Assembly: GCA_054600435.1 (NCBI GenBank)
Contig: BAAIJX010000008.1
Coordinates: forward strand, 124,001 to 188,000
Direction of reading: 5' to 3'
Length of the DNA stretch: 64,000 bases
Origin: Neophaeotheca triangularis
Taxonomy: Eukaryota
Made by a program: the position numbers and the translations under genes. Shown here piece after piece: positions 6,473-28,185 of the stretch; positions within the stretch are counted from its first letter, which is position 1; each line of letters begins with the position of its first letter. Under the pieces are notes generated by a model. It was not told the origin of the DNA. It saw only the letters and a program-made list of their open reading frames with translations, and ran no database searches.

Positions 6473-6930
6473 TGTTACGATCCTATAAGGTAGTCTTACG
6501 GGTAGAGCTCGTAGCGGAAGAGGAGAGATATCGAAGAAGGCTAGCAAGGGTGTTTCCTTTATCGTAAGGATTTCAAAGATACGTAAAGTGTCGCTATAGA
6601 CCTTTTAGTAAGATTGTAACATAAGTTAAACACAAATCTCTATCTAGGAAATGTCGCTTCCTAAATACAAAGGAGATTCGTGTTAATCATCCTAATTAGT
6701 AGTGCTTAGTTCTATTAAGCGTCGCTAAGCAAAAGGCATACTTAGTGCTTAAGACTAATCAGTAGTAATTAGTTCAACTAAGCATTACTAAGTAGGAGGC
6801 TACTTAGTTCTTAGCGTGCTTAGTTCTTAGTAAGCTCCGTATGCTTAGCCTCGGAGTCCTACCGTTAGCGTCTTTAGTCTTTATCTAATAATCTCTTCCT
6901 TCCTGTCCTAATCATGTGTTGTCCGTAACA
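6473..6930 (-). repeat. 3' LTR of gypsy copy 1
   Basis: Direct repeat of 13265-13722; about 14 differences by eye, all but one transitions. Confidence 0.97.
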
Positions 6931-7030: not shown

Positions 7031-7645
7031 ATGCCTAACAACTAGCCTAGCCGCAGCACTATCCGTCGTCGCGAATTAGCAACTTTTGTCGAAACTTACG
7101 GAAAGGATATAGTGAAGCCATATAGAACGTACTCTAAGCATAAGCGTATATGTCGGGTCTATATTCGTTCGGGAAAGTGTAGCGAGTGTCTTCGTCGGGG
7201 TTAGAGGTGTGATCTCTAGGTTTCATCATCGGAATAGGATAGGTTAAAGCGGGAGCGGACGAAACTTTAGTCGTCTATTAAGGAGGCGTTCGAGGCGTAA
7301 CTCTCTACTCGCGTAGTAGAAGAAGAGGCTCGACGGGCTAAAAATGCTACCCGCGAGGCTTTGTCTTCCGCCTTTACTAAGGAATAGCGCTTACGTCGAC
7401 AACTCGATCTCCTAGAGAAACGAGAGGTAGAGGCAATAGCTGTAGAGGAGGCTAGTATCGAGGCTAAAGAGGAGAAGGAAAAGGAGGGCGAAAACGTAAC
7501 GCTCCCTCTCGAGGATTTAGATCCGGGTCTAGGCATCATTCTTTCTCCTTCTACGTAGAATACGTTAGACGGTAGTTTTAATCTCTCGGCCGACTTCTAG
7601 AATTTTAGTGCTAGCGATATTGTTATAGGGCCCTCTAGTAGTTAA
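7031..7645 (+). pseudogene. Antisense ORF of gypsy copy 1: Zn2Cys6-like cluster + coiled coil
   Basis: 205-codon frame: MPNN*PSRSTIRRRELATFVETYGKDIVKP-Y-RT-Y-SKHKRI-C-RVYIRSGK-C-SE-C-LRRG*R-C-DL (CX2CX6CX8CX2CX6C after reverting two TAY codons), then a charged coiled coil RLRRQLDLLEKREVEAIAVEE. Confidence 0.8.
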
Positions 7646-10600
7646 GTAGGTTATCCTTAGGTTCCTAAGTGTTCTCGCTTTAGGATACCCTTTCCACTTT
7701 ACGAGGTAGTTCTAACCGTCTTTGTCTAGAATCTTTTCGACCTCATACTCGGCTTCTTCCTCTAGTAGATCGTGGTGAAAGGTGTCTTAGATTAGTGTTT
7801 CGGCGTCTACTAGCTCAAGTAGGGATATATAAAAGACTAGGTAGACTCTAGCGTCTTTTAGGAGTTAGAGGAGGTAGTTAACCTTTCCTCTTTATTCCTT
7901 AACCAGAAACGGTCCGACTTTAACATAGTCTAGTTTTCGTGTTCGTCTCCTTGTCTTTAGGTTTTTCGTAAGTAGGTACACCTTATCCCCCTTCTTAAGC
8001 TAAGGTGCCGTTTTAGAGTCCTTATGTCTCTATAACTCGAGTCGCCGTTACGACTATGTGATCTTGTCCTTCGCCTATTAGTGTGCTTCTTATAGCTACG
8101 AAGACGTCTGTAGGGCTCTTTCTACGAGCGGTCCTAGCTTTAGTTCTATAAATGTGTTTAGATCCTTTCCGAAATTTGCATAGAACGGTGTTAAGCCTAT
8201 CGTTTCTAAGGCATTGTTGTTAAGTGCGAGCTATGCTATAGGTAAGAGCGCTACCTAATTGTCCTAAGCGTAGTTAACGTAATGCCGCAAATACGTTTCG
8301 AGGGATTAGTTTAAGCGTTCCGTCTATCTATTAGTTTCGGGGTAAAATGCCGTCGAGAGCTTATGTTTTACTCCTATCGCTAATATCAAGGTCTTCTAGT
8401 AATTAGATGTGAAGAGCTTGTCTCTATCCGTAATTAGAACCGTTAGAATGCTGTAGTATCGTACTAGTCTGTTAAGAACGAGATATCCGAGTTCCTCTAT
8501 AGTGATTGTCTCGTTACAGGGAACAAAATGTAAGTACTTCGTGAGTCTGTCGACCATAACTAAAATTGAATCGTAGTCCTTACTTGTCGACGGGTCCTTA
8601 GATCTTAGTAGTTTAACAATAAAATCCATTATAACCTCGTTCTATAGTAGATCCGGTAGCTCTTAGAATTGTAGATTTCTATACTTAGCGTGTCTTAAAG
8701 CTTTGTTTTACTAGTAGCTCGTACATTTCTTGATATACTCTAAGACTTTCTGTCTTATTCCGGGGAACACGAAGTTATGTCTAATGTATTCTACTGTTCT
8801 AGTAATTCCTAGATGTCCGTTAGTAGGTCTATCGTAGTGATCCTAGATGTACTAGCGTTCCTTCTCGTTTAGAACCCTAAACTTCCTATGTTCGACAGGG
8901 AATTCCTCGGTATTATCCCTAAGTACTCGTAGTACTAAGTTAAACTCTTAGGGGTTAGCGCTTAGGCTTCCGTCCTTATTAACCTTCAGTATACGGTGTT
9001 GTTATAGAAGGTATCCTTCTATATAGTCGCTTCTTCTACTTAGCGCGTCGGCGCGCCTATTGTCTTTTCCGGGAGTGTAAACTATGTCGAACTTGTATTG
9101 TCCGAGTAGCTCTAACTATCTGCATTGTTAGCGTAATAGTTCCTTAGTAGTTATGAAATATTGTAGGTTCTTATAATCCGAGTAAATAGTTAGTCCGGTT
9201 ACTCCTTCACAGTATACTCTCTAGTATCGTAATACTATAACAATTGCGAGTAGTTCTTTGTCGTAGATCTCGTAATTCTGTTCCGCTAGTGACATTTTCC
9301 TTAAGAAGTAGGCGATAGGGTGTCGTTTGCTTTTAACCTCCTACGTAAGGTAAGCTCCTATTGCTCTATCGGAGGCATTAGTCTCGATTTAGATAGGTCT
9401 CTTAGGGTTAAACATCCTTAGCGTAGGGGCAGTCGTACATAACTCCTTAAGCTTATCGAAGGATTATTGTTAAATCTTTCCCTATACGAATAGTGTATCC
9501 TTTTTCGTAAGGTTAGTTAGAGGTATAGCGAGCCTTAAGTAATCCTTTACGAATTTCCGATTGTAGTTAGCTAATCCGAGGAATGCTTAAATGTCTTTAA
9601 CTGATTTAGGTGTCGGCTATTCCTCGATCGATTAAGTTTTCTTCGGGTCTATTCGGATCCTAGTAGTACTAATCACAAAACCTAGAAAGTCGACTTCCTT
9701 CTTATAGAACTCGCATTTCTCTAGTGCTGTTCTGAAGTCTACTTTATCGAGTCGTTCGAATACTGCGTGTACGTCCTTTATATACTATTCTCGTGATCCT
9801 TTCGTGAAGACTAATATGTCGTCGATATAAGCGATGATAGTAATGTCGAGTAGGTCTCGTAGGATGTCGTTAACGAGTTGCTAACAGGTTACTAGGGCGT
9901 TTGTAAGTCCTATAGGCATAACCTAGAATTCGTAAAGTCCGTAGCGCGTTCGAAAAGCTGTTTTCTACTCTTCCCCCCTTGCTATTCTAACTAAGTAGAA
10001 TGTATCTCGGAGATCGATTTTAGTAAACTAGTGTAAACCGGTGAGTCGATCTCTTATCTCGTCGATGTTAGGTAGTGGATAACGGTTTTTAGTAGTGATC
10101 GCATTAAGTCGTCTAAAATCGATAACCATTCGTAGTTTTCCTCCTTTTTTCGGAACGAAAAACGGTAGTAAAGCGGCTAATGAAGTAGAGGGTCAAATCT
10201 ATCCTTTCTTCATTTTCTCATCTAGCCATTATCGTTACTCTTCGAGCTCTTTTTCGGATAGCGCGTAAAGTGGCCCCTATAGTATCTTCGTACCGGGCTA
10301 AATGTCGATTCGGTAGTCCTATAGTTAATGTCTAGGTAGAGCGGCTACTCCTCCCTCTTCCTAGAAAAGGCGCTTCTATTTCCTGAATTCTCTAGGGATA
10401 TCCGAAGGTACGTGACTTCCTTCCTTAACTCTTACCTGTTAGTCCGTTTAGGCTAGTTCGGTACCTGTAGAGTCCGATCTAATTCGTATTAGTATCGTGG
10501 TCGATTAGCGATACGTTTCGTTAATCTGCCTTCTCTTATCTACCGTCGATCGCTGCCGGCGCGTAGGGTAGGTTGTAGTGACGTAACTATACCTGTCGAA

Positions 10601-13224
10601 TATAAGTACTCGTTTTCTCTAATCTACTATAGGATTATGTCGTTCTAACTAAGGAGTGCCTAGAACGACGTCATGTCTAGCTATAGGCATAACGTCTAGG
10701 ATAATTCGCTCGTGATGCTTTTAGAAGACAAGTAGTAGCGGTACTGTTTCGCTATCTACGTCGGGTAGTAATAAGCCGTCTACGGCTATTAGTTCGTACC
10801 CGCTATCTATTTTCTTCTAGGTAGCTAGCCTATACTAACGTACGAAGGTTTCCAAGATAAAGTTTCCGCTAGCTCTAGAATCTATTATAGCGAGGGTTTC
10901 GTATCTGTTAACAGTACATGTTGTTCGGAAGACCGTTCCTAATACTATTTCATGTTAAGTATTTGTGTTGTTTAGTTCCTAACGCTCGCTCTTAGCGATA
11001 GGTCCTATTCGTTTTTTGAGAAGTAGGTAGATGAATCCGCTGTTTCGAGAGAGACTTCCTAATAAAGGGGTCCGTCCCGAGGTCTAATCGTAACCTTTCC
11101 TTAGATCGCGTGTACGGTAATAGGTCCTCGTGTAGTTGCTTTAATATGTCCGAGAATCATCTTTCGGTCGACTAGTAGTAAAAACTTGTCGCGCGGTACT
11201 ATAGTCTATTAGTCTAAGGAATACTATGCTTACTTCTTCATTTCTTGTAGCGTGATTTCTTCTTCTCTCCATTACTCCTAGATAAGCTAGAATTCTCTAT
11301 AACGATTCTTAACTATTTTGACTCTTTGTCTTATAGAATGTGGGATCCGTATCCCGTCTAGCGTAATGTAGCCGTTTTCTCCGTGAAAAGTGCTTCCTAT
11401 CGGTAGCCTGTCCTAGATAAAGGTAGCGGCGTTATACTCGACGGCGACCTTTCGGTAGTCCTAGAACATTGCTCGTAGTCGTATAAGTATAGCTTCGAAT
11501 TAGTTAGGTTCTAAGCGTCGTTTGCCTTAGATCATTAGGAACACTTCTTCGTACGATCGTGTAATGTGAATGACCATTTTCTTAATTAGGTTTAGTCCGT
11601 GCATAATGAACTCTACTACGTCGTTGTCGTCTAGTTCGTTATCGTCGGTGTAGTCGTATTCGGAGTCGTCTTTAGAATCTATCACTGTCGTATCCTCTTA
11701 CGATTCTAGAATCTCTAGAGGCATTAATAGTCTTAAAGGGCTAACCTCCGGTATTAGTACGATCGTAGTAAGTTCCGGTGTCTAAGATATATCTTCGTTT
11801 TCTAAGTTAGGTGTCGGTAGTGCTATCGTCGATAATAGTACTTAGTTTTCTTGCAGTTTGTCGTCCTCCTATGCAAATAGAGGTAGGGACCTTCCTCGGG
11901 CTACGTTACCGTCGTCCCTTGACTGCTATAATGGTTAGCGTCTTAACATCATGTTAAGTTCCTTCTAAGGCTTACGTAGTTACTTAGATTCTTCGTCTGC
12001 TATAGCCTTAATCCTATTATTTAGATCTGCTATCTAATCGGCTACTTAGATTATAAGGTTAAAGTGTTCTTTAGTCTACTCCTTATGACTAACTAAGTCG
12101 TCGTGAAACTCCCTAAGCTTCTAGTATTACTCGATTAGCGCGTCCGTTCCGGACTTCGGGGTAACTCGTTTAATAACATTTACTTCCTTCCGAGGTCTAA
12201 TAGGTATTCCGTTAGTTACTAGTCCCTGACTTTTGTGTACTAAATAGTAATCCCTCTTACAAAACCTCTAGTAAAGTTCGTCGTGTTCCGGTTCTTCGTA
12301 GGTTCCGGTAATGTCGTAAGCTCCGTAGCTCTTATCGGTAGGAGAGTCGTTATCCTATCGGGTTAAAATCGCATTGACCTCCTAGCGTAGGCGCATCTAT
12401 TTCCTACGGCAGTCTCGTGTATAGTGCCCTATCTTATAGTAGTTATAGCATTCTAGTCCGTTCCGTTTCTTGCCTAGGGCGTTCTGTTTGCCCCGTCCTC
12501 TATCCCTACCCTTCCTAGGACGTTATTACGTAGAGTCGAGTTCTATCGTATTAGGATCGCGACATTACTAACCGATAGGCCGGCTGCCGGTAGCATAGCT
12601 AGTTCGTCCGCGAAATTGTCTAGTGTAGCGTTTTTCTATAAACCGTTTGTAGAGAGCGTTATTAACCTCGATCGCCGATCTAATTATACCGGGGAGAGTT
12701 GACTAATCGCCTCCGTAGCGTATAAGTTCGTCCTTCACGTTGTCCTTAAGTCCTCGGTAGTATATAGTTATAAGAGCGTTGTCGTCCTAGTCGGTCTTAG
12801 CTAAGTACTCTTAAAACTTAGTAGTGTACTAAGAGGTAGACGTTTTCTACGTGAGGTGCTAAATCATTCGGATAGCAACTTGTCGATCGTTACTCAATCC
12901 GTAGACGTTACGGATAACCTTAACAAAAGACTTCTAGTTCGAGAATAGTCCTTTAGGGTCGATTCGTTCTATAAGGAAATCCGTAAGCTTAGGGCGGATC
13001 TAGTGTTAAGCTTCTCCTCGAAGGAACGAAGTAGTAGTAAGAGGTTACTTCTACTTACTAACGCTTTCTATAAGGAAGAATATCATTATCTAGTTAACCT
13101 AGTCGTCTAGCTTATTACGTTCGCCGTAGAAGTAGTCCGGTTTAGTAACCTTGTTAGTAGTTATAGTTAATACTCCTCATTAGGTGCTAGCGACGCTTGC
13201 GTCTCGGTTATCGGATAGGGACAT
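7560..13224 (-). pseudogene. gag (13224-11005) and -1-frameshifted pol (PR-RT-RNaseH-IN-chromodomain) of gypsy copy 1
   Basis: Reverse complement is co-linear with copy 2 gag-pol; integrase fragment MDFIVKL...ITDRDKLFTS at 8396-8629; many TAA/TAG RIP stops. The pol end is approximate. Confidence 0.93.
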
Positions 13225-13264
13225 ACTTGCCTATTAATCTCTCCTTCCTAGAGGGTATTCAAAG

Positions 13265-13722
13265 TGTTACGATCCTATAAGGTAGTCTCACGGGTAGAGC
13301 TCGTAGCGGAAGAGGAGAGATATCGAAGAAGGCTAGTAAGGGTGTTTCCTTTATCGTAAGGATTTCAAAGATACGTGAAGTGTCGCTATAGACCTTTTAG
13401 TAAGATTATAACATAAGTTAAACACAAATCTCTATCTAGGAAATGTCGCTACCTAAATACAAAGGAGATTCGTGTTAATCATCCTAATTAGTAGTGCTTA
13501 GTTCTATTAAGCGTCGCTAAGCAAAAAGCATGCTTAGTGCTCGAGACTAATCAGTAGTGATTAGTTCAACTAAGCATTACTAAGCAGGAGGCTACTTAGT
13601 TCTTAGCGTGCTTAGTTCTTAGTAAGCTCCGTGTACTTAGCCTCGGAGTCCTACCGTTAGCGTCTTTAGTCTTTATCTAATGATCTCTTCCTTCCTGTCC
13701 TAATCATGTGTTGTCCGTAACA
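13265..13722 (-). repeat. 5' LTR of gypsy copy 1
   Basis: Followed on the minus strand by CTTTGAATACCCTC (PBS position) and the gag ATG at 13224. Confidence 0.97.
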
Positions 13723-15860: not shown

Positions 15861-16521
15861 GATCCTAACAAGCTATGTAAATAGTATAGTATTAGGTAGC
15901 GAATAGCGTAAAGTTAGGGCACATAACCGAGTAAAAACAAAAGAGTTAGAGGAGACAAAAAGTAGATACGATAAACGAGGCGGGGAGGGCCTTAATATAG
16001 AACAGCGCGGCTAGCTGTCCTTTGCGATTAACACGGCGAACCAAATATAGTTGATCGTAGAACGCTAGTTAACCCTATAGCCAATACCGAGGCTCTATAG
16101 AACGTTAATCATGTACGTACTCTACACTAAAAACGTCCTTATACACTATTAGCTGCCTAATAACGCTAGCATTAGCAAATACTTGCTACGCGGCTCCTTA
16201 TACTAGCCAATCTCTTAGGTATAGCTTCTCTAGCTTAGTAAGGATAGGATCGTTACCACTAAGATCGTATATACGGACTTGATCGCAAAGAGCAGTATAT
16301 ACTAAGTAGTGTACTTTCTAACCGTCTGCGGCTACATCGTCGCCTTTAACGCTATCGAAACCGAGCCCTTAAAGCGTTTATTAGTACTAGTCAAAGGTCG
16401 CTTAGGGGAGATATGCGTTAATAGCTTACGTAAATTAGTACAAGACCCTTAACTCGGTTATTCGCCCTATGTTTGTATAGTACTCACAAAAGTCCTCGAG
16501 GCTCTCTACTAAAGGGCGTAG

Positions 16522-17005
16522 TGTTACGAACACTACGCTGCGCCTAGCGTACAATAGGGAATGCTCAGTGGAACCCACGGTCACAGGACAGAGCACATTC
16601 AGGTCACGTGATATGCTTACCTCTGCTTAGTGCTTACCTTTAACTGAGCACTACTAAGCGATAGAGTAGTGCTTACCTCTACTTAGTGCTTACCTTTAAC
16701 TAAGCACTACTAAGCGACAGAGTAATGCTCACCTCTGCTTAGTGCTTACCTTTAACTAAGCACTACGGAGCGACAGATTATAGCGATTAGAGACACGGAT
16801 CTCCTTTGTATTTAGGTAGCGGTATTTCCTAGATAGAGATATGTGTTTAACTCATGTTACAATCTTACTGAAAGGTCTACAGTAACACTTCACGTATCTT
16901 TGAAATCCTTACGATAAAGGAAACACCCTTACTAGCCTTCTTCGATATCTCTCCTCTTCCGCTACGAGCTCTAAACCCGTGAGACTACCTTATAGGATCG
17001 CAACA
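16522..17005 (+). repeat. 5' LTR of gypsy copy 2 (U3 contains 3 x 56-bp tandem repeat, ~16614-16780)
   Basis: Direct repeat of 23311-23794; repeat units start at 16614, 16670 and 16726. Confidence 0.97.
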
Positions 17006-17045
17006 CTTTGAATACCCTCTAGGAAAGAGAGATTAATAGGCAAGT

Positions 17046-19265
17046 ATGTCCCCATCCGATAACCGAGACGTAAGCGTCGCCAGCACTTAACGAGGAGTAT
17101 CGACTATAGTTACTAGCAAGGTTACCAAACCGGACTACTTCTATGGCGAACGCAACAAGCTAGACGACTAGGTTAACCAGATAATGATGTTCTTTCTCAT
17201 AGAAAGCGTTAGTGAGCAGAAGCAACCTCTTACTACTGCTTCGTTCCTTCGAGGAGAAGCTTAATACTAGATCCGCCCTAAGCTTACGGATTTCCTTATA
17301 GAACGAATCGACCCTAAAGGACTGTTCTCGAACTAGAAGTCTTTTGTTAAGGTCATCCGCAACGTCTATGGATTAAGCAACGATCGACAAGTTGCTATCC
17401 GAATAATTTAGTACCTCACGCAGAAAACGTCTGCCTCTTAGTACACTGCTAAATTTCAGGAGCACTTAGCCAAGACTGACTAGGACGACAACGCTCTTAT
17501 AACTATGTACTACCGAGGACTTAAGGACAACGTGAAGGACGAACTTATGCGCCACGGAGGCGATTAGTCAACTCTCCCCGGTATGATCAAATCGGCGATT
17601 AAAGTTGATAACGCTCTCTACGAACGGTTTATGGAAAAACGCCACACTAGACAATTTCGCGGACGAACTAGCTATGCTACCGGCAGCCGGCCTATCGGTC
17701 AGTAACGTCGCGATCCTAATGCGATAGAACTCGACTCCACGCAATAGCGTCCTAGGAAGGGCAGGGATGGAGGACGGGGCAAACAGAACGCCCTAGGCAA
17801 GAAACGGAACGGACCGGAATGCTATAACTGCCACAAGATAGGGCACTATACACGAGACTGCCGTGGGAAACAGATGCGCCCACGACAGGAGGTTAATGCG
17901 ATTTTGACCCGACAGGATAACGACTCTCCTACCGATAAGAGCCGCGGAGCTTACGACATTACCGGAACATACGAAGAACCGGAACACGACGAACTTTACT
18001 AGAGGTTTTGCGAAAGGGATTATTGCTTAGTGCACAAAAGTCAAGGACTAGTAACTAACGGTATATCTACTAAACCTCGGAAGGAAGTGAACGTTATCGA
18101 ACGAGTTACCCCGAAGTCCGGAACGGACGCGCTAATCGAGCAATACTAGAAGCTTAGGGAGTTTCACGACGACTTAGTTAGTCATGAGGAGTAGACTAAA
18201 GAATACTTCAACCTCATGATTTAAGTAGCCGATCAGATGGCAGATCTGAACGACAGGATCAAGGCCATAGCAGACGAAGAATCTAAGTAACTACGTAAGC
18301 CTTAGAAGGAACTCAACATGATGTTAAGACGCTAACCACTATAGCAGTCAAAGGACGACGGCAACGCAGCCCGAGGAAGGTCCCTACCTCTATTTGCATA
18401 GGAGGACGACAAACTGCAAGAAAACTAAGCACCATTAACGACGATGGCACTACCGATACCTGACTTAGAAAACGAAGACATACCTTAGACACCGGAACTC
18501 ACTGCGATCGTACCTACACCGGAGATTAGCCCTTTAAGACTATCTATGCCTCTAGAAATTCCAGAATCGCAAGAAGATACGACAGTGACGGATTCCGAAG
18601 ACGACTCCGAATACGAATACACCGACGACGAAGAACCCGACGACAACGATACCTTAGAGTTCATTGCGGAAGGACCCGCACCAATTAAGAAGATGGTCAC
18701 CCACATCGCACGATCGTATGAAGAAGTGTTCCTAAGGATCTAAGGCAAACGACGCTTAGAACCTAACTAATTCGAAGCTATACTTACGCGATTACGAGCA
18801 ATGTTCTAGGATTACCGAAAGGTCGCCGTCGAGTATGACGCCGCCACCTTTATCTAGGACAGGCTACTAATAGGAAGCACATTCCACGGAGAAAACGGTT
18901 ACATCACACCAGATAGGATACGTATCCTACACACGATGAGACAACGAGTCAAAACAGTCAAGAATCGTTACAGAGAATTCTAGCTTATCTAGGAGCAGTA
19001 GAGAGAAGAAGAAATCACGCTACAAGAAATGAAGAAACAAGCACAGGATTCCTTGGACCAATAGACACTAGTACCACGCGACAAGTTCCTACTACTAGTA
19101 GACCGAAAGATGATTCTCGGACACATTAAAGCAACTACACGAGGACTAATCACAGCACACGCAATCCAAGGAAAAGTCACAATCAGACCTCGGGACGGAC
19201 CCCTTTACTAGGAAGTCTCTCTCGAGACAGCGGATTTATCTACCTACTTCTCAAAAAACGAATAG
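17046..19265 (+). pseudogene. gag of gypsy copy 2 (740 codons, CCHC knuckle, long C-terminal extension)
   Basis: ATG 17046; KPDYFYGERNKLDD(W); CYNCHKIGHYTRDC at ~17820; ends AAA AAC GAA TAG at 19265. Confidence 0.9.
19253..19259 (+). promoter_or_regulatory. -1 ribosomal frameshift slippery site A AAA AAC (also 11011-11017 minus in copy 1)
   Basis: Heptamer just before the gag stop; pol lies in the -1 frame. Confidence 0.8.
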
Positions 19266-22200
19266 GACCTGTCGCTAAGAGCGAGCGTTAGGAACTAAAC
19301 AACACAAATGCTCAACACGAAATAGCATTAGGAACGGTCTTCCGAACAACATGTACTGTCGACAGATACGAAACCTTTACTATGATAGATTCCGGAGCTA
19401 GCGGAAACTTTATCTCGGAAACGTTCGTACGTTAGCATAGGTTAGCTACCCAGAAGAAAACAGATAGCGGGTACGAACTGATAGCCGTAGACGGTTCATC
19501 ACTACCCGACGTGGATAGCGAAACAGTACCGCTACTACTTGTCTTCCAAAAGCATCACGAGCGAATTGTCCTAGACGTTATGCCTATGGCTAGACATGAC
19601 GTCGTTCTGGGCACTCCTTAGTTAGAACGACACAATCCTACAGTGGATTGGAGAAAACGAGTACTCACATTCGACAGGTGTAGTTACGTTACTACAACCT
19701 ACCCTGCGCGCCGGTAGCAATCGACGGCAGATGAGAGAAGGTAGATCAACGAAACGTATCGCTAATCGACCACGATACCAATACGAATTGGATCGGACTC
19801 TATAGGTACCGAACTAGCCTAAACGGACCAAGAAGTGAGAGTTAAGGAAGGAAGTCACGTACCTTCGGATATCCCTAGAGAATTCAGAAAATAGAAGCGC
19901 CTTTTCTAGGAAGAGGAAGGAGCAGCCGCTCTACCTAGACATCAACTATAGGACTACCGAATCGACATTCAGCCCGGTGCGAAGATACTATAGGGGCCAC
20001 TTTACGCGCTATCCGAAAAAGAGCTCGAAGAGCAACGACGATAGCTAGATGAGAAAATGAAGAAAGGATGGATTCGACCCTCCACTTTATTAGCCGCTTC
20101 ACTACCGTTTTTCGTTCCGAAGAAAGGAGGAAAATTACGAATGGTTATCGATTTCAGACGACTCAATGCGATCACTACCAAAAACCGTTATCCACTGCCT
20201 AACATCGACGAGATGAGAGATCGACTCACCGGTTCACACTGGTTCACTAAAATCGATCTCCGAGATGCATTCTATTCAGTTAGAATAGCAAGGGGGGAAG
20301 AGTAGAAAACAGCTTTTCGAACGCGCTACGGACTATACGAATTCCAGGTTATGCCTATAGGACTCACGAATGCCCTAGCAACCTGTTAACAACTCGTTAA
20401 CGACATTCTACGAGACCTACTCGACATCACTGTCATCGCCTACATCGACGACATATTAGTCTTTACGAAAGGATCACGAGAACAGCATACTAAGGACGTA
20501 CACGCAGTATTCGAACGACTCGACAAAGTAGACTTCAGGACAGCACTAGAGAAGTGCGAGTTCTACAAGAAGGAAGTCGACTTTCTAGGCTTTGTGATTA
20601 GCACTACCGGGATCCGAATAGACCCGAAGAAAACTTAATCGATCGAGGAATAGCTAACACCCAAGTCAGTTAAAGACATCTAAGCATTCCTCGGATTAGC
20701 TAACTACAATCGGAAATTCGTAAAGGATTACTTAAGGCTCGCTACGCCTCTAACTAACCTCACGAAGAAGGACATACCATTCGTATAGGGAAAGATTCAA
20801 CAACAATCCTTCGATAAGCTTAAGGAGTTATGCACGACTGCCCCTACGCTTAGGATGTTTGACCCTAAGAGACCTATCCAAATCGAAACCGATGCCTCCG
20901 ATAGAGTAATAGGAGCTTGCCTCACGTAGGAGGTTAAAAGCAAACGACACCCTATCGCTTACTTCTCGAGGAAGATGTTACTAGCAGAACAGAATTACGA
21001 GATCTACGACAAAGAACTACTCGCAATCGTTACAGCATTACGATACTAGAGAGTGTACTGTGAAGGAGCAACCGGACTGACTATTTACTCGGATTACAAG
21101 AACCTACAATACTTTACAACTACTAAGGAACTGTCACGCCGACAATACAGATAGTTAGAGCTACTCGGACAATACAAGTTCGACATAATCTACACTCCCG
21201 GAAAAGATAATGGGCGCGCCGACGCGCTAAGCAGAAGAAGCGACTACATAGAAGGACACCTTCTATAGCAACACCGCATACTGAAGGTTAATAAGGACGG
21301 AAGCCTAAGCGCTAACCCCTAAGAATTTAACTTAGTACTGCGAGTACTTAGGGATAACACTAAGGAATTCCCTGTCGAACATAGGAAGTTCAGGGTTCTA
21401 AACGAGAAGGAACGCTAGTACATCTAGGACTACCACGATAGACCTACTAACGGACATCTAGGAATCGCTAGAACAGTAGAACACATTAGACGCAACTTTA
21501 TGTTCCCCGGAATGAGACAGAAGGTCTTAGAGTACATCAAGAAATGTACGAGCTGCTAACAGAACAAGGCTTTAAGACACGCTAAATATAGAAATCTACA
21601 ATTCTAGGAGCTACCGGATCTACTATAGAACGAGGTTATAATGGATTTTATCGTTAAGCTACCGAGATCTAAAGACCTATCGACAAACAAGGACTACGAC
21701 TCGATTCTAGTCATGGTCGACAGACTCATAAAGTATTCACATTTCGTTCCCTATAACGAGATAATTACTACAGAAGAACTCGGATACCTCGTTCTCGACA
21801 GATTAGTACGATACCACGGCATTCTAACGGTTCTGATTACGGACAGAGACAAGCTCTTCACATCTAACTACTAGAAGACCTTGATATTAGCGATAGGAGT
21901 GAAACACAAGCTCTCGACAGCATTTCACCCCGAAACCGATAGACAGACAGAACGCTCAAACTAATCCCTCGAGGTGTACTTAAGACATTACGTTAACTAC
22001 GCTTAGGACAATTAGGTAGTACTCTTACCTATAGCACAGCTCGCACTTAACAACAATGCCTTAGAAACGACAGGCATAACTCCGTTCTACGTAAACTTCG
22101 GAAAAGATCTAAACACGTTTATAGAACTAAAGCTAGGACCGCTCGCAGAAAGAGCCCTGCAAACGTCTTCGCAGCTACAGGAAGCATATAAATAGGCAAA

Positions 22201-22717
22201 GGACAGAATTACACAGTCGTAACGGCGACTCGAGTCACAAAGACATAAAGACTCTAAAACGGCACCTTAGCTTAAGAAGGGGGATAAGGTATACCTGCTT
22301 ACGAAAAACCTGAAGACAAGGAGACGAACACGAAAACTAGACTATGTCAAAGTCGGACCGTTTCTAGTTAAAGAACAAAGAGGAAAAGTCAACTACCTCC
22401 TCTAACTCCTAAAAGACGCTAGAATCCACCTAGTATTCTATGTTTCCTTGCTCGAACTAGTAGACGCCGAGACACTAATCTAAGACACCTTCCACTACGA
22501 TCTACCTAAGGAAGAAGCCGAGTACGAGGTCGAAAAGATTCTAGATAAGGACGGTTAGAACTACCTCGTAAAGTGGAAAGGGTATCCTATAAGCGAGAAC
22601 ACTTAGGAACCTAAAGACAACCTACTTAACTGCTAGAGGATCCTACGGCAATATCACTAGGAATTAGACCAAGGTCCCAAAACTCGTTAGGTAGGCCGTC
22701 TATCGAAGTCTAAGTAA
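19259..22717 (+). pseudogene. pol of gypsy copy 2: protease, RT, RNase H, integrase, chromodomain
   Basis: MIDSGASGNFIS (protease); [14 protein letters not shown] and YIDDIL (RT); IETDASD (RNase H); MDFIVKLP...TDRDKLF (integrase); EYEVEKIL...YLVKWKGY (chromodomain, ~22520-22630). Confidence 0.95.
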
Positions 22718-23246
22718 GAGGATTTAAAGCCAGATCGGGACCCGGCTAATCAGGAGGAAAATCGGGATTAAAGAGCTCGTTACCGCCTTCCTTAAGCTCG
22801 AGGAGCTCGATGTTACGCTCTTTAACAGCTATAGCCTCTCCCTCCTTCTCCTGCAAACGGTCTATTTGTTTCCGAAGACGCATTTCCTTAGACAGCGAAC
22901 GATTTGCTTCCTCTTAAGCCTCAGCTACCTTTTGCTAAGCAACAACGGACACACACCGAGCCTCTTCTATCGCCTTGCGAAGACGCTCGTGATTACGACG
23001 AAGGCGAGCGAACTCGTTCTCCGTCACTCTTACATCGCAAGAAGAAATGTTTCGCCGTACGTAGGCGGCACACTTTCTAGACCGAATGTGTACCTTGCAC
23101 ACACGACCCGCCTCCCGGCATTGCGTACATTTTCGAACTATGTTAAGAACCGTTCCGTGCGAATCCAGGAAATTGAATAACTCGTGGCGACGAGTAGTGG
23201 AAGACTTCTTTGTTTTAGGCATCGCGTTAATAAAGGAAGATGCCAT
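22626..23246 (-). pseudogene. Antisense ORF of gypsy copy 2: Zn2Cys6-like cluster + coiled coil
   Basis: 207-codon frame; 23129-23037 reads C-TQ-C-REAGRV-C-KVHIRSRK-C-AA-Y-VRRNISS-C; continues past RIP stops as KEMRLRKQIDRLQEKEGEAIAV. Confidence 0.82.
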
Positions 23247-23310
23247 TAACTATGGAACGAAAGACAAGTGGAGAATAAGCTCGGGACGAGCTAGACTAGG
23301 AGGGGGATGG

Positions 23311-23794
23311 TGTTACGAATACTACGCTGCGCCTAGCGTACAATGGGGAATGCTTAGTAGAACCCACGGTCATAGGACAGAGCACATTCAGGTCACGTGA
23401 CATGCTCACCTCTGCTTAGTGCTTACCTTCAACTAAGCACTACTAAGCGACAGAGTAGTGCTTACCTCTGCTTAGTGCTTACCTTCAACTAAGCACTACT
23501 AAGCGACAGAGTAATGCTCACCTCTGCTTAGTGCTTACCTTTAACTAAGCACTACGGAGCGATAGATTACAGCGATTAGAGACACGGATCTCCTTTGTAT
23601 TTAGGTGGCGGTGTTTCCTAGATAGAGATGTGTGTTCAACTCATGTTACAATCTTACTAAAAGGTCTACAGTAACACTTCACGTATCTTTGAAATCCTTA
23701 CGACAAAGGAAACACCCTTGCTAGCCTTCTTCGATATCTCTCCTCTTCCGCTACGAGCTCTAAACCCGTGAGACTACCTTGTAGGATCGTAACA
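23311..23794 (+). repeat. 3' LTR of gypsy copy 2
   Basis: Preceded by the PPT and followed by TSD CGTAG. Confidence 0.97.
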
Positions 23795-25928
23795 CGTAGG
23801 AGCTCGGTAGGTACTACGACTCTATAGTCTCTCTTCCCGTGAACTTAAGGGAACTCATAAAGCATGTTTAGCACACCCGATACTACGCTTAGCCGGGCCT
23901 TTTGCTTCCTAATCTTATAGTTATTCTAGAGGGCTACATACTAGAAGTAGGCGTCTCGAATAATGGGCATATAGACAGCTAAAAAAGCAATGCAATGGCG
24001 AAAGTTGCTAGGCTAGTATTAACCGTCGATAACAAGCCTTTTAAAGTAACTCTTCTACTATTAGCTAATAGCGAGAAAGGATTTTCCCTACTAGACCTCG
24101 ATACGTTAGTTCTATTTGCTAGTACCGTATCGAAAGGCGTCTTCGAAGATAAGAGGCTCTTTATCGTCGCCCCTCTATAGGCTATTTGCAAGGTAATACT
24201 ACGCGTCTACGAGCATGACTGTTTCGGCCCCTTTATTAGAGGTCACTACTTAAGGCATTACGCCCCCGTCGCGAACACTCTAGAGGTACTATGCGCTAAT
24301 AGATACCGACGTACGCGCCGTAATACTAATGTATAGCTAGATCACCTTACGAGAGAAGGCGTTAATATAGCTATACACCTAGATACTATAACTCTCGAAC
24401 TTATATATAGCGTTAATCGACTAGACGTAGTTTAGACTAGGTATGTCTACTGTCCGCACGTGCCGAGTTGTGCGTAGGCGTCTTTCGAAACCGGCCGGAT
24501 TTATCTCTTTCGCGATCCTCTAGAGCCGGTTCCTATATAGGTGTCTAGTTAGCGATCAGTAGGCGATTATGGTGCGAACGACTCGTGTTATCCTATGCAT
24601 GTATTAAGTAGCGAACTCACCTTCCTACTACGTTGTATTTCGAGCGTAGGGTCACATAAAGTGACTCGAGCCCGAGGTCCTTAACCCTTCTACCCTCTAG
24701 TTCTTATGTATAGACATCTCGTGTCCATTACTCTATTGCTACACCGAGCTCTATGTCATCTATATATCTCTTGCGTAGTCCTATTAATGCCCTTAACTTA
24801 GCGATCTACCGTACTACTAAATTACCGTGACCGTCGTGTTTTAGGACTATGGCAATCTCTAGATCCGTGAGGCGCCGCTCACTAAATAACATGTGTAGAC
24901 GCGCGCGCATTGCCTCTATATCTAAGAGAGCGATAATAGGCCGGCGACGGGGTAATTACTATTCTACGACCCTTCTACGGAGACACTTTTAGTTAATAAC
25001 TATACCGTATCGTGTAAGTAAGTGTGCGCGAACGTAGTTATAGGTATAGGAGTTCGTAAGTAACTAAGTGATTTCCTCGCGATAAGGCTCTAGGTCGATC
25101 TTTCGATAGGGTATAGTAGTAGAGAGCTCGACATACTCGGAGGGCGAGAGAATAGTAGTAGAGAGCTCGACACACTCGGAGGGCGAGAGAACTTTAGTAT
25201 GTTAAAGGCAGGATGTAATCCTGTTAGGTACGAAGGTATAGTGGCTTAGTTAGAACAACAATGTCCCTTAGTTAGAACATTAATGGCCTCCGGTTAGGAT
25301 AACAACTTAGAAGCCCATTCCCCTCGATAGCCGCGAGGGATTTGCGGGAAGCATTCCCTTTTAGGAGTCTACCTATTGCCCGGTAATAGGTTAGCATTCC
25401 GGCCCTAGTTAGAACAACAACCTAGAAGCCTAGTAATAGGTTAGCATTCCGGCCCCGGTTAGAACAACAACCTAGAAGCCCGGTAATAGGTCGGTATGCC
25501 ACGCGCTAGTGAGCGGCTATTCCTAGAACAAAAATGTCCCTAGTTAATAACAATGTCCCTTAGTTAGAACAATAACTTAAAAGCCTAGTGATAGGTCAGC
25601 ACGCCACGCGCTAGTAAGCGGCTATTTCTAGAACAAAAATGTCACTAGCTGACAACAATGTCTTCTAGTTAGAACATAAATGCCTACCGGTTAGAACAAT
25701 AACCTAAAAGCCCTATGATTAGTCAAAATAAGACCACGCTAGTAAATGGCGGTTTTTAGAATAGAAACCCTACGGCTTTTTCTAGTTTTTCTTTTCTACC
25801 TAGTTAGAATAACAACTTCCTCTACATATAGAAACGAAGCAGGCATTAAGAAAGAGATAGACTACCTCTACTCCCGTATAGACGGGCCCTACTCTAAACC
25901 CCTCCTCTAAGGGTAAGGTCGAAGATAC

Positions 25929-26245
25929 GGGGTTTACGGACGGTATAGGAGTAGAGGCCCTCGTTGTCGGAGGAGGGGTTTACGGACGGTGTAGGAGTAG
26001 AGGCCCTTGTTGTCGGAGGAGGGTTTACGGACGGTATAGGAGTAGAGGCCCTCGTTGTCGGAGGAGGGGTTTACGGATAGTGTAGGAGTAGAGGCCCTTA
26101 TTGTCGGAGGAGGGTTTACGGACGGTATAGGAGTAGAGGCCCTTGTTATCGGAGGAGGGTTTATAGACGGTGTAGGAGTAGAGGCCCTCGTTATCGGAGG
26201 AGGGGTTTACGGATAGTATAGGAGTAGAGGACCCCGTTATCGAGG
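25929..26245 (+). repeat. Minisatellite, 7 x 45-46 bp (ggtttacggacggtataggagtagaggccctcgttgtcggagga)
   Basis: Units start at 25931, 25977, 26022, 26068, 26113, 26158 and 26204. Confidence 0.95.
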
Positions 26246-26609
26246 AAGCCGACTAGTAAGCCGACTAGTAAGCGAACTCGCCGCCATAAAAGCCTAACAC
26301 GTACGGACTCGCTACCATAATACATAGTCGCCTAGTAGTATGTAGAGCCCCTTACGTAGGCTTAGAGCTAGGATGTAGATAAGGATAAAGTGTAGCGACG
26401 TAGGCAAACGACTAGCTACTATTAGGCGCGTCCTAGCGGAGTACGACGAGGATAGGTCTATATTGTCGGCGGCGACGTCAATTAAGGATACAGTCTGCCT
26501 TAGGGGCGGTAACCTTATAGTTAGCGCTATAGTTAATCATCTAGGCACACCCTACTACCTAAGCGAACTCGCCGCCATAAAAGCCTACTACGAGCGGATA
26601 GTGTCGAGG

Positions 26610-26930
26610 GTCGCTTCTACGTCTAAGCTACGTCTTCATTACCTCTAAGCGCTTACTAGGATTGCTCCTACGTCCTAAGCTACGTCTCTATTGCTCCCTT
26701 AGGCCGTTACTAGGGTTACTCCCTCGGGCGCTTACTAGGATTACTCCTACGTCCTAAGCTACGTCTCTATTGCTCCCTTAGGCCGTTACTAGGGTAGCTC
26801 CCTCGGGCGCTTACTAGGGTTACTCCCTCGTACGCTTACTAGGATTACTTCTACATCCTAAACTACGTCTCTATTACTCCCTAGGGCGCTTACTAGGGTA
26901 GCTCCCTCGGCTCCTTACTAGGATTGCTTC
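26610..26930 (+). repeat. Composite tandem array (cgcttactagg.ttactccctcggg / ctacgtcctaagctacgtctctattgctcc units)
   Basis: Interleaved ~24-30-bp units visible by eye. Confidence 0.8.
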
Positions 26931-27500
26931 CCTATACTAGAGTAGCTCTACTAAACTAAGCTTCCTCTTCTAGAGTAGTCGCTACTATTGCTTTAAGGCG
27001 CGTAAGGCAAGGGCGGCCCGTAATAGGACGCTTACCTCGCTACGAGGCGGACAAGGCGGCGCTGATTTGATAATAGCGGTGTGCTAGGTCTATCATGTCG
27101 ATGTAGACTTTCTAGCCTAAAAGGTATAGACGTACTCGGGGGGGCGAAGCGACTTAGGTCTACTCGATAGAAAGGTAATCCCTAGGGGCTATATCCCCGG
27201 GGGGTAGGGGGGGCGGTAGAAGGTTAGAATAATAATCTCCCTTAGTTAGAACAATAACTTAGGACACCTAAGATTAGTCGACAGGAAACCACGCTAATAA
27301 AGGGCTATATTTAGAACAAAAACCCTACGGCTTTCTTCTACATACTACTATCCTAGTTAGAATAGCAATCTATCCTAGTTAGAACAATAACACATAACGC
27401 TTATGTAGCCGGTTTACGGCATGCTATCTCGCGGCTCCTAACCCTCGACGGTTAAGCGGATCGGTATACCTTTACGGCGTAGTCGTTTGTCGTGGCTCTA

Positions 27501-27650
27501 GGTAATGTTCCTCGTCTTTATCTACGGTAATGTTCCTCGTCTTTATCCGCGGTAATGTTCCTCGTCTTTATCTGCGGTGATATTCCTCGTCTTTATCCGC
27601 GGTAATGTTCCTCGTCTTTATCCGCGGTAATGTTCCTCGTCTTTATCCGC
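27501..27650 (+). repeat. Minisatellite, 6 x 25 bp (ggtaatgttcctcgtctttatccgc)
   Basis: 25-bp period starting at 27501. Confidence 0.95.
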
Positions 27651-27778
27651 GTCGCTCCTAGGGCTTCTAGACCGGTGCGTAGAATAGTGGTGTCGTACCG
27701 TCCCTCCTAGGAGTTTTCTCGTGAGAAGGAAGGTCCGCTAACTCTTATAGTCGCTACGTATTTATCGACGCAGCTTCT

Positions 27779-28185
27779 ATGGTTAGCCGTAGTGTCGGTA
27801 GTGTGTTAATACGTACTTGCGTCTTACGCCGTAGTAACTATCCGTCCTATAGTTAGCCGTAGTGTTAGTAGTATGTTAATGCGTGCTTACGTCTTACGCC
27901 GTGGTAACTGTCCGTCCTATAGTTAGCCGTAGTGTCGGTAGTGTGTTAATACGTGCTTACGTCTTACGCCGTAGTAACTGTCCGTCCTAGAAGTTCTCTC
28001 GTGAGAAGTAAGGTCCGCCGGCTCTCGTAGTCGCTACGTATTCATCGACGTAGCGTCTATAGTTAGCCGTAAGGTCAGTAGTATGTTAATGCGTGCTTAC
28101 GTCTTACGCCGTAGTAACTATCCGTCCTATAGTTAGCCGTAGTGTCGGTAGTGTGTTGATGCGTGCTTACGTCTTGCGCCGTGTA
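27779..28185 (+). repeat. ~70-bp tandem array (~5 units, one interruption)
   Basis: atagttagccgtagtgtcggtagtgtgttaatacgtgcttacgtcttacgccgtagtaactatccgtcct recurs at ~27779, 27849, 27919, 28059 and 28129. Confidence 0.9.

What the first reader, a model, noticed from the sequence alone, without database searches (positions are those of the whole stretch)
22626..23246. Gypsy copy 2 has a homologous but strongly diverged antisense Cys6 gene
Seen: same position, orientation and length (207 codons). The protein aligns to copy 1 (STTRRHELFNF/STIRRRELATF; CKVHIRSRKC/CRVYIRSGKC; RLRKQIDRL..EAIAV/RLRRQLDLL..EAIAV; PLT(W)TSIDG/PST(W)NTLDG) although the DNA is hard to align. Protein-level conservation with DNA divergence implies purifying selection on a real gene rather than a shadow ORF.
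Basis: partly seen in the sequence, partly recalled or inferred. Interest (0 to 1): 0.78.

Follow-up and report, generated by a model that had tools for sequence, protein, structure and literature searches.

The report
Dead antisense zinc-cluster gene in retrotransposon
The stretch is a mutation-killed copy of a real extra gene that fungal Gypsy retrotransposons carry backwards behind pol, and the two neighbouring elements share the same gag-pol but carry very different versions of this gene and of the adjoining promoter region.

Summary
Window 22626-23246 (-) and 7031-7645 (+) are homologous reading frames: 37% identity, E 2e-21 and z = 39 against shuffles. Each lies antisense between the pol stop and the 3' LTR of a RIP-mutated chromovirus, with 4 and 9 stops.

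Intact relatives are many: 151 cluster representatives. They have six invariant cysteines at Zn2Cys6 spacing, a long helix and a C-terminal aromatic motif. dN/dS is 0.08-0.10 in the reading frame only. All 29 metagenome loci with enough flank lie inside LTR elements; 27 abut pol tail-to-tail.

The specific point here is a mosaic. The two elements differ in gag-pol almost only by transitions (479 ts, 40 tv). The block of antisense gene plus U3 is 45-48% identical, and the two genes fall in different well-supported clades. This indicates cassette exchange by recombination, not divergence in place.

The layout is already known from brtn of Botrytis Boty. Function as a DNA-binding regulator of the element's own U3 is inferred, not shown.

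The parts
16517..16521 (+). target-site duplication CGTAG, left of copy 2
   Evidence: the same 5-mer is at 23795-23799
16522..17005 (+). copy 2 5' LTR (TGTTAC...GTAACA). The U3 part to about 16792 is unlike copy 1; the rest is shared.
17006..22660 (+). copy 2 internal region with gag-pol, RIP-mutated. RT, RNase H, integrase, SH3 and chromodomain are recognised in 19700-22657 read with X at stops.
   Evidence: Compared with copy 1: 5652 columns, 90.8% identical, 479 transitions, 40 transversions, 1 gap.
22626..23246 (-). the finding: antisense zinc-cluster-like gene of copy 2, a pseudogene with 4 stops and one Cys to Tyr. The family-type start is probably at 23222. The last ~10 codons overlap the end of pol tail-to-tail.
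22660..23580 (.). block in which copy 2 is unlike copy 1 (antisense gene + spacer + U3): 45-48% identity with transversions above transitions
23299..23307 (+). polypurine tract GGAGGGGGA just before the 3' LTR; it lies about 50 nt outside the antisense ATG
23311..23794 (+). copy 2 3' LTR. U3 23311-23580 is lineage-specific; 23581-23794 (TATA-like block, R-U5) is shared with copy 1.
23402..23566 (+). 2.9 tandem copies of a 56-bp unit in U3 of copy 2; each holds an inverted repeat of the type TAGTGCTTA / TAAGCACTA
23795..23799 (+). target-site duplication CGTAG, right of copy 2
6473..6930 (-). copy 1 3' LTR. U3 6685-6930 is unlike copy 2 and has 2.0 copies of a 63-bp unit at 6692-6813. The TSD CTAAG is at 6468-6472 and 13723-13727.
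7031..7645 (+). antisense gene of copy 1 (the comparison partner): a pseudogene with 9 stops and two Cys to Tyr, belonging to a different clade of the family
7612..13264 (-). copy 1 gag-pol, the same as copy 2 apart from RIP-type transitions
13265..13722 (-). copy 1 5' LTR

Best explanation
Window 22626-23246 (-) is a RIP-inactivated copy of an accessory gene that a large group of ascomycete Ty3/Gypsy chromoviruses carries on the antisense strand, tail-to-tail with pol and about 60-100 nt inside the 3' LTR.

The intact protein is about 175-210 aa. It has four parts:
- a conserved N-terminal helix (S-T-x-R-R);
- a six-cysteine cluster with the spacing C-x2-C-x6-C-x8-C-x2-C-x6/7-C of Zn2Cys6 binuclear clusters;
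- an ~80-residue helix predicted to pair two chains;
- an acidic stretch ending in a conserved aromatic motif (L-A-L-x-P-x-T-W ... F-W).

Inferred mechanism. The gene is transcribed inward from the U3 side of the 3' LTR. The protein dimerises, binds DNA through the zinc cluster, and regulates the element's own U3 enhancer. I favour an element-specific activator or copy-number regulator.

The two elements in this window have the same gag-pol and the same R-U5/TATA part of the LTR, but carry different [antisense gene + PPT spacer + U3] cassettes from two old clades. This is what an intermolecular minus-strand transfer plus one template switch at the end of pol would produce between co-packaged RNAs of two lineages.

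What is shown: homology, gene reality, purifying selection, retroelement linkage, the mosaic structure, RIP decay. What is inferred: zinc binding, DNA binding, the target being U3, the promoter in U3, the recombination mechanism.

The confidence of 0.6 is for the whole statement. By part it is 0.95 for a dead copy of a real retroelement gene, 0.85 for cassette exchange, and 0.45 for a DNA-binding regulator of U3.
For: Homology of the two copies: 37% identity, E 2e-21; z = 39.

Family size: 8 hits, 151 representatives at E <= 1e-3, and 206 at E <= 1e-5 with the profile.

Cysteines and zinc-cluster likeness:
- Six Cys are invariant in the 35 diverse sequences I picked.
- Zn_clus is the Pfam family matched by most members, 14 of 35 at E <= 1.
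- The best solved-structure sequence hits are Leu3 (E 0.07) and Lac9 (E 0.12).
- UniRef names 5 members 'Zn(2)-C6 fungal-type domain-containing protein'.
- The AF2 model has pLDDT 86.9. With the domain-only model, 16 of the 22 Foldseek rows shown, including ranks 1-12, are Zn2Cys6 DNA-binding domains; the best is Pho7, E 0.13, prob 0.89.

Homodimer: score 0.45 against a best control of 0.00. The runs agree in >= 76% of contacts and partner pLDDT is >= 72. The mark was reached by 21 of 30 proteins solved as pairs of one chain and 0 of 23 solved as single chains; on eukaryotes, 17 of 29 and 0 of 30.

Selection: dN/dS is 0.08-0.10 in the six close pairs and only in this frame.

Context: 27 of 34 loci have pol abutting on the other strand. 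L030/L031 is a pol-deleted element with 330-bp LTRs and a gag remnant.

Mosaic:
- gag-pol has 479 transitions against 40 transversions, whereas the block is 45-48% identical with transversions above transitions.
- W2 groups with P0004/P0005 (100/95) and W1 falls inside a separate 24-row clade (97/97).
- The pol sequences of W1 and W2 are sisters (100/100).
- The same discordance occurs among metagenome elements: L032/L033 sit with L002/L007/L008/L009 in pol (100/99) but outside them in the ORF tree.

RIP: TpA/ApT is 1.58-1.88 against 0.75 in the neighbouring genes. All stops are TAG or TAA, and where the relatives agree they sit at their Gln or Trp.
Against: No member reaches Pfam's Zn_clus gathering score (best 13.9 bits against 21).

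No structural match has E <= 0.001, and the domain-only model is of middling confidence (pLDDT 66).

The loop between Cys3 and Cys4 lacks the proline usual in Gal4-type clusters and instead holds a conserved His and Ser-Gly (that the proline is usual is recalled).

In the dimer model the contacts sum to about 194 (100 with 96, 108 with 86, 83 with 111). That is an antiparallel pairing and would put the two clusters at opposite ends, unlike Gal4.

There is no expression evidence for the window copies.

Co-transfer of gene and U3 is equally expected from plain physical linkage in the 3' end of the RNA, so it does not by itself show a factor-site pair.
Confidence: 0.6

Rival explanations
1. The protein is real and element-borne but is not a transcription factor. 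The cysteine cluster and long coiled coil would serve particle biology instead: binding the element's RNA or cDNA, binding gag or integrase, nuclear import, or integration-site choice.
For: The family fails Pfam's Zn_clus threshold. The dimer model is antiparallel, unlike Gal4. The whole-model search finds only generic coiled coils, Z <= 7.4. The conserved N-terminal helix and C-terminal aromatic motif have no assigned role.
Against: The Cys spacing, the weak but consistent sequence hits and the ranks 1-12 fold hits all point to DNA-binding Zn2Cys6 domains. An acidic stretch plus an aromatic motif at the C-terminus is typical of activators (inference).
Confidence: 0.25
2. What matters is the antisense RNA. 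It overlaps the 3' end of the genomic RNA and would dampen the element by RNA interference; the reading frame would be secondary.
For: The gene ends between 13 nt beyond and about 136 nt inside the pol frame, so its mRNA must overlap pol mRNA.
Against: Frame-specific purifying selection (dN/dS 0.08-0.10 against 1.3-4.6 in other frames) and six invariant Cys over 35 diverse sequences show selection on the protein. The two roles do not exclude each other.
Confidence: 0.1
3. The two window genes diverged in place, by fast or diversifying evolution or hypermutation after the elements split, rather than by exchange of a cassette.
For: Accessory genes and U3 regions of retroelements do evolve fast (general knowledge). 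RIP adds many changes.
Against: gag-pol of the two elements differs by 40 transversions in 5652 columns, while the block has 250 transversions in 964 columns. Each gene has its own intact close relatives in separate clades with 95-100% support. The borders are sharp, at the chromodomain end and just upstream of the TATA-like block. RIP makes transitions only.
Confidence: 0.04
4. It is a shadow ORF or a chance frame on the strand opposite to coding sequence, or an ordinary host gene caught between repeats.
For: The wobble-sharing opposite frame also shows lowered dN/dS (0.18-0.28), which is the usual shadow effect.
Against: The sense strand does not code here beyond the last codons of pol. The lowest ratio is in the antisense-gene frame. 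All 29 of 29 loci with flank lie inside LTR elements.
Confidence: 0.01

Closest known systems
[quoted passage not shown] 2011, Virology 417:248). I saw it only as cited in passages of PMC8365987, PMC7264820 and PMC4227169; the paper itself is not held.
   Same: A fungal Ty3/Gypsy element with gag, zinc knuckle, PR, RT, IN and chromodomain. It carries an extra gene on the antisense strand between pol and the 3' LTR.
   Different: Sequence homology could not be tested, because no brtn sequence is in the text or in the two supplementary files held as text. The named members of the present family are all from Dothideomycetes: Cercospora, Elsinoe, Sporormia, Hortaea, Oleoguttula. No Botrytis or Sclerotinia name stands among the 120 best rows. 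None of the passages I saw mentions a zinc-cluster nature.
Antisense additional ORFs between pol and 3' LTR of plant LTR retrotransposons (Grande, RIRE2, Retand, PvRetro13; review PMC7264820, passages read)
   Same: Same place and orientation, conserved within families, function unknown.
   Different: Plants, non-chromovirus lineages in part. No sequence relation was tested or is expected.
Gal4-type Zn2Cys6 binuclear-cluster transcription factors (Pfam PF00172)
   Same: Six Cys with spacing inside the family's range, basic residues around the first Cys pair, and a helix predicted to pair chains directly after the cluster. The best sequence and fold hits are Leu3, Lac9, Pho7, Gal4, Put3, Hap1, Ppr1 and AlcR.
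   Different: Below Pfam's curated score. No proline before Cys4. Conserved His and Ser-Gly in the loop, and an extra conserved helix before the cluster. Only about 190 aa with no middle homology region. An 80-residue helix modelled antiparallel. Encoded by a retroelement.
HBZ of HTLV-1 (recalled, not looked up here): a dimerising basic-zipper regulator encoded antisense and transcribed from the 3' LTR
   Same: Works alike in outline: an antisense gene at the 3' end of a retroelement that encodes a small coiled-coil nuclear regulator.
   Different: Different DNA-binding fold, a vertebrate retrovirus, no homology. For the fungal gene, neither transcription from the LTR nor any regulatory effect has been shown.

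Membership tests
Antisense accessory gene of LTR retrotransposons (aORF between pol and 3' LTR; brtn type) | Lies between the pol stop and the 3' LTR, on the strand opposite to gag-pol | tested here: met
   Window copies. 27 of 34 related loci have pol abutting on the other strand; 5 have too little flank; 2 are a pol-deleted element with LTRs and gag.
Antisense accessory gene of LTR retrotransposons (aORF between pol and 3' LTR; brtn type) | Conserved as a coding sequence among copies and families | tested here: met
   dN/dS 0.08-0.10 in six close pairs, specific to the frame. 23 of 34 loci keep an uninterrupted frame of 173 aa or more.
Antisense accessory gene of LTR retrotransposons (aORF between pol and 3' LTR; brtn type) | Sequence homology to brtn itself | not testable with these tools
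   Zhao et al. 2011 is not held. No brtn sequence is in the supplements of PMC8365987 held as text.
Antisense accessory gene of LTR retrotransposons (aORF between pol and 3' LTR; brtn type) | Own transcript | not testable with these tools
   No usable RNA data could be obtained for this stretch.
Zn2Cys6 binuclear cluster (Pfam PF00172 Zn_clus) | Six Cys spaced C-x2-C-x6-C-x5-12-C-x2-C-x6-8-C (the range is recalled) | tested here: met
   C-x2-C-x6-C-x8-C-x2-C-x6/7-C, invariant in 35 of 35 aligned sequences. The window copies keep 5 and 4 of the 6.
Zn2Cys6 binuclear cluster (Pfam PF00172 Zn_clus) | Score at or above Pfam's gathering threshold (21 bits) | tested here: not met
   Best 13.9 bits. 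3 of 8 and 14 of 35 match only at E 0.037-1. The two window copies give no match.
Zn2Cys6 binuclear cluster (Pfam PF00172 Zn_clus) | Fold of the cluster domain | tested here: inconclusive
   Foldseek ranks 1-12 and 16 of the 22 rows shown are Zn2Cys6 domains, but E >= 0.13 and the model pLDDT is 66. With the full model, 4 of 13 rows are Zn2Cys6, E >= 1.2.
Zn2Cys6 binuclear cluster (Pfam PF00172 Zn_clus) | Dimerisation helix after the cluster, parallel as in Gal4 | tested here: inconclusive
   Homodimer model 0.45 against a best control of 0.00. The mark was reached by 21 of 30 proteins solved as pairs of one chain and 0 of 23 solved as single chains. However, the contacts are antiparallel.
Zn2Cys6 binuclear cluster (Pfam PF00172 Zn_clus) | Binds two zinc ions and CGG-type DNA sites | not testable with these tools
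   Needs metal analysis and DNA-binding assays.
Ty3/Gypsy chromovirus (the carrier element) | LTRs with TG..CA ends, 5-bp target duplication, polypurine tract, pol order PR-RT-RNase H-IN plus chromodomain | tested here: met
   (TSDs CGTAG and CTAAG; PPT). (RVT_1 5e-36, RT_RNaseH 2e-29, Integrase_H2C2 1.7e-16, Chromo 3.6e-11 in window 19700-22657 read with X at stops).

The most novel reading that the evidence does not exclude
The antisense gene and the U3 enhancer next to it form a matched, exchangeable regulatory cassette. On this reading each chromovirus lineage encodes its own small zinc-cluster factor that reads the repeats in its own U3. Recombination between co-packaged RNAs then swaps whole factor-plus-enhancer cassettes between gag-pol backbones, giving an element a new expression programme in one step. 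The window would hold a natural before-and-after pair of such a swap.
Probability: 0.22. Interest if true: 0.75.

Novelty: new member of a known kind. Interest (0 to 1): 0.5.

Why it matters
Extra antisense genes in LTR retrotransposons have been known for years in plants and in Botrytis, but none has a known function.

This family is large, clearly under selection and strictly element-bound. It looks like a miniature Gal4-type factor, which turns 'function unknown' into a concrete, cheap test: does it bind its own LTR?

The window adds a natural experiment. It holds two insertions with the same gag-pol but different gene-plus-U3 cassettes. Across metagenome elements, the pol and antisense-gene trees disagree with strong support. 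Both point to modular evolution of retroelement control regions in fungi.

For genome annotation, these frames should be masked as transposon genes. At present some carry names such as 'Zn(2)-C6 fungal-type domain-containing protein', 'galactokinase' or 'AcrA'.

Tried and rejected
Whole-genome search of the window's own assembly: no genome is held.

Pfam on the two RIP-mutated translations: nothing meaningful.

The search for related loci with the 35-sequence alignment: no conserved stretch was usable. It was repeated with 12 closer sequences.

Sequencing runs: no RNA holder is listed. The two coded runs (one sample) were laid. A single 221-nt contig covers only 23600-23795, the shared R-U5 part of the LTR, at 90-95% likeness; nothing lies on the gene. 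No conclusion on expression follows.

VIA-align of the whole model against 48,161 chains: only generic coiled coils, Z <= 7.4.

ESM Atlas: only unnamed Ascomycota clusters. The 'named' search of residues 1-70 gave scores of 0.80-0.86 with no family.

The pair is saturated, and natural intact relatives answer the question better.

Of the 171 pairs among 19 intact ORFs, only 8 had NG86 dS below 1.5. Two of these are nearly saturated pairs (dS 1.48) that gave 0.44 and 0.49, and I do not rely on them.

Earlier notes of this scan for this place or sequence: none.

Literature: four full-text searches found no paper describing a zinc-cluster antisense gene in fungal Gypsy elements. Zhao et al. 2011 could not be read, so it may say more than the citing passages do. 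The supplementary PDF with the Fig. S1 domain drawing of PMC8365987 gave no brtn text.

A motif search for CGG-type sites in U3 was not attempted on the window, because RIP has rewritten these sequences.
Full report
**What is there**

The window is fungal. Its left 29 kb is poor in G+C, and the two Gypsy copies in it carry RIP signatures. TpA/ApT is 1.58-1.88 in the two elements against 0.75 in the gene-rich right half. (CpA+TpG)/(ApC+GpT) is 0.39-0.63 against 1.19.

Two Ty3/Gypsy chromoviruses lie head to head.
- Copy 1 is on the - strand. Its LTRs are 6473-6930 and 13265-13722, and its target duplication is CTAAG.
- Copy 2 is on the + strand. Its LTRs are 16522-17005 and 23311-23794, and its target duplication is CGTAG.
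- Both have TGTTAC...GTAACA LTR ends and a GGAGGGGGA-type polypurine tract.

Read with X at stops, copy 2 pol shows RT, RNase H, integrase zinc domain, Tf2-type SH3 and a chromodomain, without frameshift from 19700 to 22657.

**The observation**

The frame 22626-23246 (-) begins 64 nt inside the 3' LTR border. It ends 32 nt inside the last chromodomain motif of pol, so it is tail-to-tail with pol. It has four stops; its partner in copy 1, 7031-7645 (+), has nine.

All stops are TAG or TAA. Where the intact relatives agree, they stand at the relatives' Gln or Trp. The missing cysteines are Tyr. All of these are CpA-to-TpA or TpG-to-TpA changes as RIP makes them.

The two translations align end to end at 37% identity, E 2e-21. 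The Smith-Waterman score is 262 against 34.7 +/- 5.8 in 2000 shuffles, and against 24-46 for the other five frames. Codon-aligned DNA identity is 50%, lowest at third positions (0.42), with more transversions (172) than transitions (120).

**Is it a real gene?**

A word-index search found 8 intact relatives of 158-199 aa. An exhaustive HMMER scan of 1.84 billion cluster representatives found 151 at E <= 1e-3 and 47 at E <= 1e-10, nearly all 150-230 aa. A profile search found 206 at E <= 1e-5.

I aligned 35 mostly full-length sequences picked from these lists. Six cysteines and one glycine are invariant.

A scan of JGI metagenome contigs gave 34 loci, and 23 of them keep an uninterrupted frame of 173 aa or more. 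Of the 171 pairs among 19 intact frames, eight had dS below 1.5.
- The six pairs with 82-90% protein identity give dN/dS 0.08-0.10.
- The two nearly saturated pairs give 0.44 and 0.49.
- For the six close pairs, four other frames give 1.3-4.6 and the wobble-sharing opposite frame gives 0.18-0.28.

Selection thus acts on the protein read from the antisense strand.

**Is it always in a retroelement?**

I searched the 34 loci with tblastn, using the pol of L005.
- 27 have pol on the opposite strand directly after the gene's stop. Pol either follows within about 13 nt or overlaps the gene by up to about 136 nt.
- Five loci end within 140 nt of the gene and cannot be judged.
- The remaining two (L030 and L031, one place in two assemblies) show no pol. 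The gene there sits between two 330-bp direct repeats that are 95% alike, next to a gag remnant on the other strand (E 1e-32). This is a pol-deleted derivative of an LTR element.

Named members come from Cercospora kikuchii (three loci), Elsinoe australis, Sporormia fimetaria, Hortaea werneckii (16 contigs) and Oleoguttula, all Dothideomycetes by my recollection of their taxonomy.

**What the protein looks like**

AlphaFold2 with the 35-row alignment gives pLDDT 86.9. The model has a helix at 9-23, a compact cysteine region with two short helices (32-37, 51-56), one helix from 66 to 146, and a short helix at 162-169 in the conserved L-A-L-x-P-x-T-W motif.

The cysteine spacing C-x2-C-x6-C-x8-C-x2-C-x6/7-C falls in the Zn2Cys6 range. 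Sequence evidence for that family is consistent but weak.
- Zn_clus is the Pfam family matched by most members: 3 of 8 and 14 of 35. The E-values are only 0.037-1 and the scores at most 13.9 bits against a cut-off of 21.
- The best solved-structure hits are Leu3 (E 0.07) and Lac9 (E 0.12).
- UniRef's automatic name for five members is 'Zn(2)-C6 fungal-type domain-containing protein'.

Fold evidence points the same way and is just as weak.
- With the whole model, Pho7, Ppr1 and Put3 take 4 of 13 rows, at E >= 1.2.
- With a domain-only model (pLDDT 66), ranks 1-12 and 16 of the 22 rows shown are Zn2Cys6 DNA-binding domains. The best is Pho7 at E 0.13.
- No match reaches E 0.001.

I therefore call it Zn2Cys6-like and do not file it as a Pfam member.

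A two-copy model of residues 25-150 scored 0.45 against 0.00 for the best of three controls. The runs agree in at least 76% of contacts and the partner pLDDT is at least 72. The mark was reached by 21 of 30 proteins solved as pairs of one chain and 0 of 23 solved as single chains; on eukaryotes the counts are 17 of 29 and 0 of 30. The contacts are antiparallel, which differs from Gal4, and the orientation of a modelled coiled coil is not reliable.

**The mosaic: the new point in this window**

I aligned the two elements column by column.

| Segment | Columns | Identity | Transitions | Transversions | Gap columns |
|---|---|---|---|---|---|
| Internal region, PBS to chromodomain | 5652 | 90.8% | 479 | 40 | 1 |
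| Outer ~214 bp of each LTR (TATA-like block, R-U5) | 216 each | 91-94% | 15; 11 | 3; 1 | 2; 2 |
| U3 | 276 | 44.6% | 56 | 65 | 32 |
| Spacer | 98 | 48.0% | 20 | 19 | 12 |
| Antisense gene | 590 | 47.3% | 109 | 166 | 36 |

Before RIP, the internal region and the outer LTR parts were practically the same sequence. The block between them (copy 2 22660-23580; copy 1 6685-7611) is not, and U3 of the 5' LTRs differs likewise.

In a maximum-likelihood tree of 48 family members, copy 2 groups with P0004 and P0005 (100/95), inside a clade with 99/94 support. Copy 1 sits in another clade of 24 rows (97/97) with P0009 and P0010. In a pol tree the two window elements are sisters (100/100).

This excludes divergence in place. 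It fits a recombinant formed during reverse transcription, because U3, the polypurine tract and the antisense gene are contiguous at the 3' end of the genomic RNA. An intermolecular first-strand transfer, followed by one switch back at the start of shared pol sequence, gives exactly these borders. This step is an inference from the established model of retroviral reverse transcription.

The exchange is not unique to this window.
- L032 and L033 group with L002, L007, L008 and L009 in pol (100/99). In the gene tree they group with L029, outside the clade that holds those four together with L003, L011, L020, L021 and L024.
- Over 104 pairs, identity in pol and identity in the gene are uncorrelated (Spearman 0.14, p 0.17). 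The window pair is the extreme case: 0.91 in pol against 0.41 in the gene.

**How it most likely works**

Shown: a selected, element-bound protein gene placed so that its start faces U3 of the 3' LTR and its end overlaps pol.

Inferred: transcription starts in or beside U3. The protein binds zinc, pairs through the long helix, and binds DNA. Its target is the element's own U3, which in both copies holds tandem enhancer-like repeats: 2.9 copies of 56 bp in copy 2 and 2.0 copies of 63 bp in copy 1. Both units carry a TAGTGCTTA / TAAGCACTA-type inverted repeat. The acidic stretch and aromatic end act as an activation or partner-binding motif.

My probabilities are:
- 0.95 that this is a dead copy of a real retroelement gene;
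- 0.85 for cassette exchange;
- 0.45 for a DNA-binding regulator of U3.

Rivals are a particle or integration cofactor (0.25) and a mainly RNA-level antisense role (0.1), which the frame-specific selection argues against as the sole role.

**Comparison with what is known**

The layout is that of brtn in Boty-like elements of Botrytis and Sclerotinia, and of plant antisense ORFs. I know this from passages in PMC8365987, PMC7264820 and PMC4227169. I could not read Zhao et al. 2011, and no brtn sequence was available to me, so homology with brtn is open.

Four full-text searches found no description of a zinc-cluster antisense gene in fungal Gypsy elements.

Earlier notes of this scan describe the same kind of gene in other genomes and also name brtn as the closest known. 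I treat them as leads only.

In outline the gene resembles HBZ of HTLV-1 (recalled): an antisense, 3'-LTR-side gene for a dimerising nuclear regulator.

**Verdict**

The finding is correct and the gene family is real, but both copies here are pseudogenes and the gene layout is known. The added value is twofold: a clean natural example of a swapped gene-plus-U3 cassette on one gag-pol backbone, and strongly supported disagreement between the pol and gene trees elsewhere. Interest is moderate.

Noticed in passing
window 23402-23566 and 6692-6813 (also the 5' LTR copies, e.g. 16613-16780): The U3 regions of the two elements cannot be aligned overall. Both nevertheless hold tandem repeats (56 bp x 2.9; 63 bp x 2.0) built around a similar inverted repeat of the TAGTGCTTA / TAAGCACTA type. 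These may be enhancer units; RIP has blurred them.
   Followed up: partly
L015, L016, L019, L020, L024, upstream of the antisense gene (alignment A5): In intact relatives the U3 between the TATA block and the LTR edge keeps 3-6 direct copies of CAGAGCA spaced 8 nt apart, inverted TGCTCTG copies and a GGTCACGTGACC palindrome. This holds although the adjoining gene has dS 0.6-1.4 between these elements. They are candidate binding sites.
   Followed up: no
L031 9575-11988 (= L030): A non-autonomous LTR element of about 2.4 kb that has lost pol. It keeps the antisense gene (175 aa, open) and a gag remnant between 330-bp LTRs.
   Followed up: partly
window 11127-11727 (copy 1) = 18543-19143 (copy 2): 21 of the 40 transversions between the two gag-pol regions fall in this 600-bp stretch of the gag/protease region. 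This may be a second small variable or exchanged segment.
   Followed up: no
window 24000-29000 and 2400-5100: AT-rich flanks are full of short tandem arrays: 24-nt period at 28269-28709, 25-nt at 27451-27675, 45/46-nt at 25885-26242, 79-nt at 26614-26949. Matching inverted pieces occur on both sides of the element pair (2468-2533 with 28755-28820). They are probably remains of other RIP-mutated repeats.
   Followed up: no
window 5623-6189: A GC-rich 15-nt-period repeat gives open frames on both strands (Thr/Pro-rich on the - strand), directly beside the 3' LTR of copy 1.
   Followed up: no
protein hits: Some metagenome members of the family carry automatic names that are surely wrong ('galactokinase' on 5 of 120 rows; 'multidrug efflux pump subunit AcrA'). 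Many members sit on contigs of 0.7-1.4 kb or of 6.2-7.4 kb, that is, of gene size or of element size.
   Followed up: no
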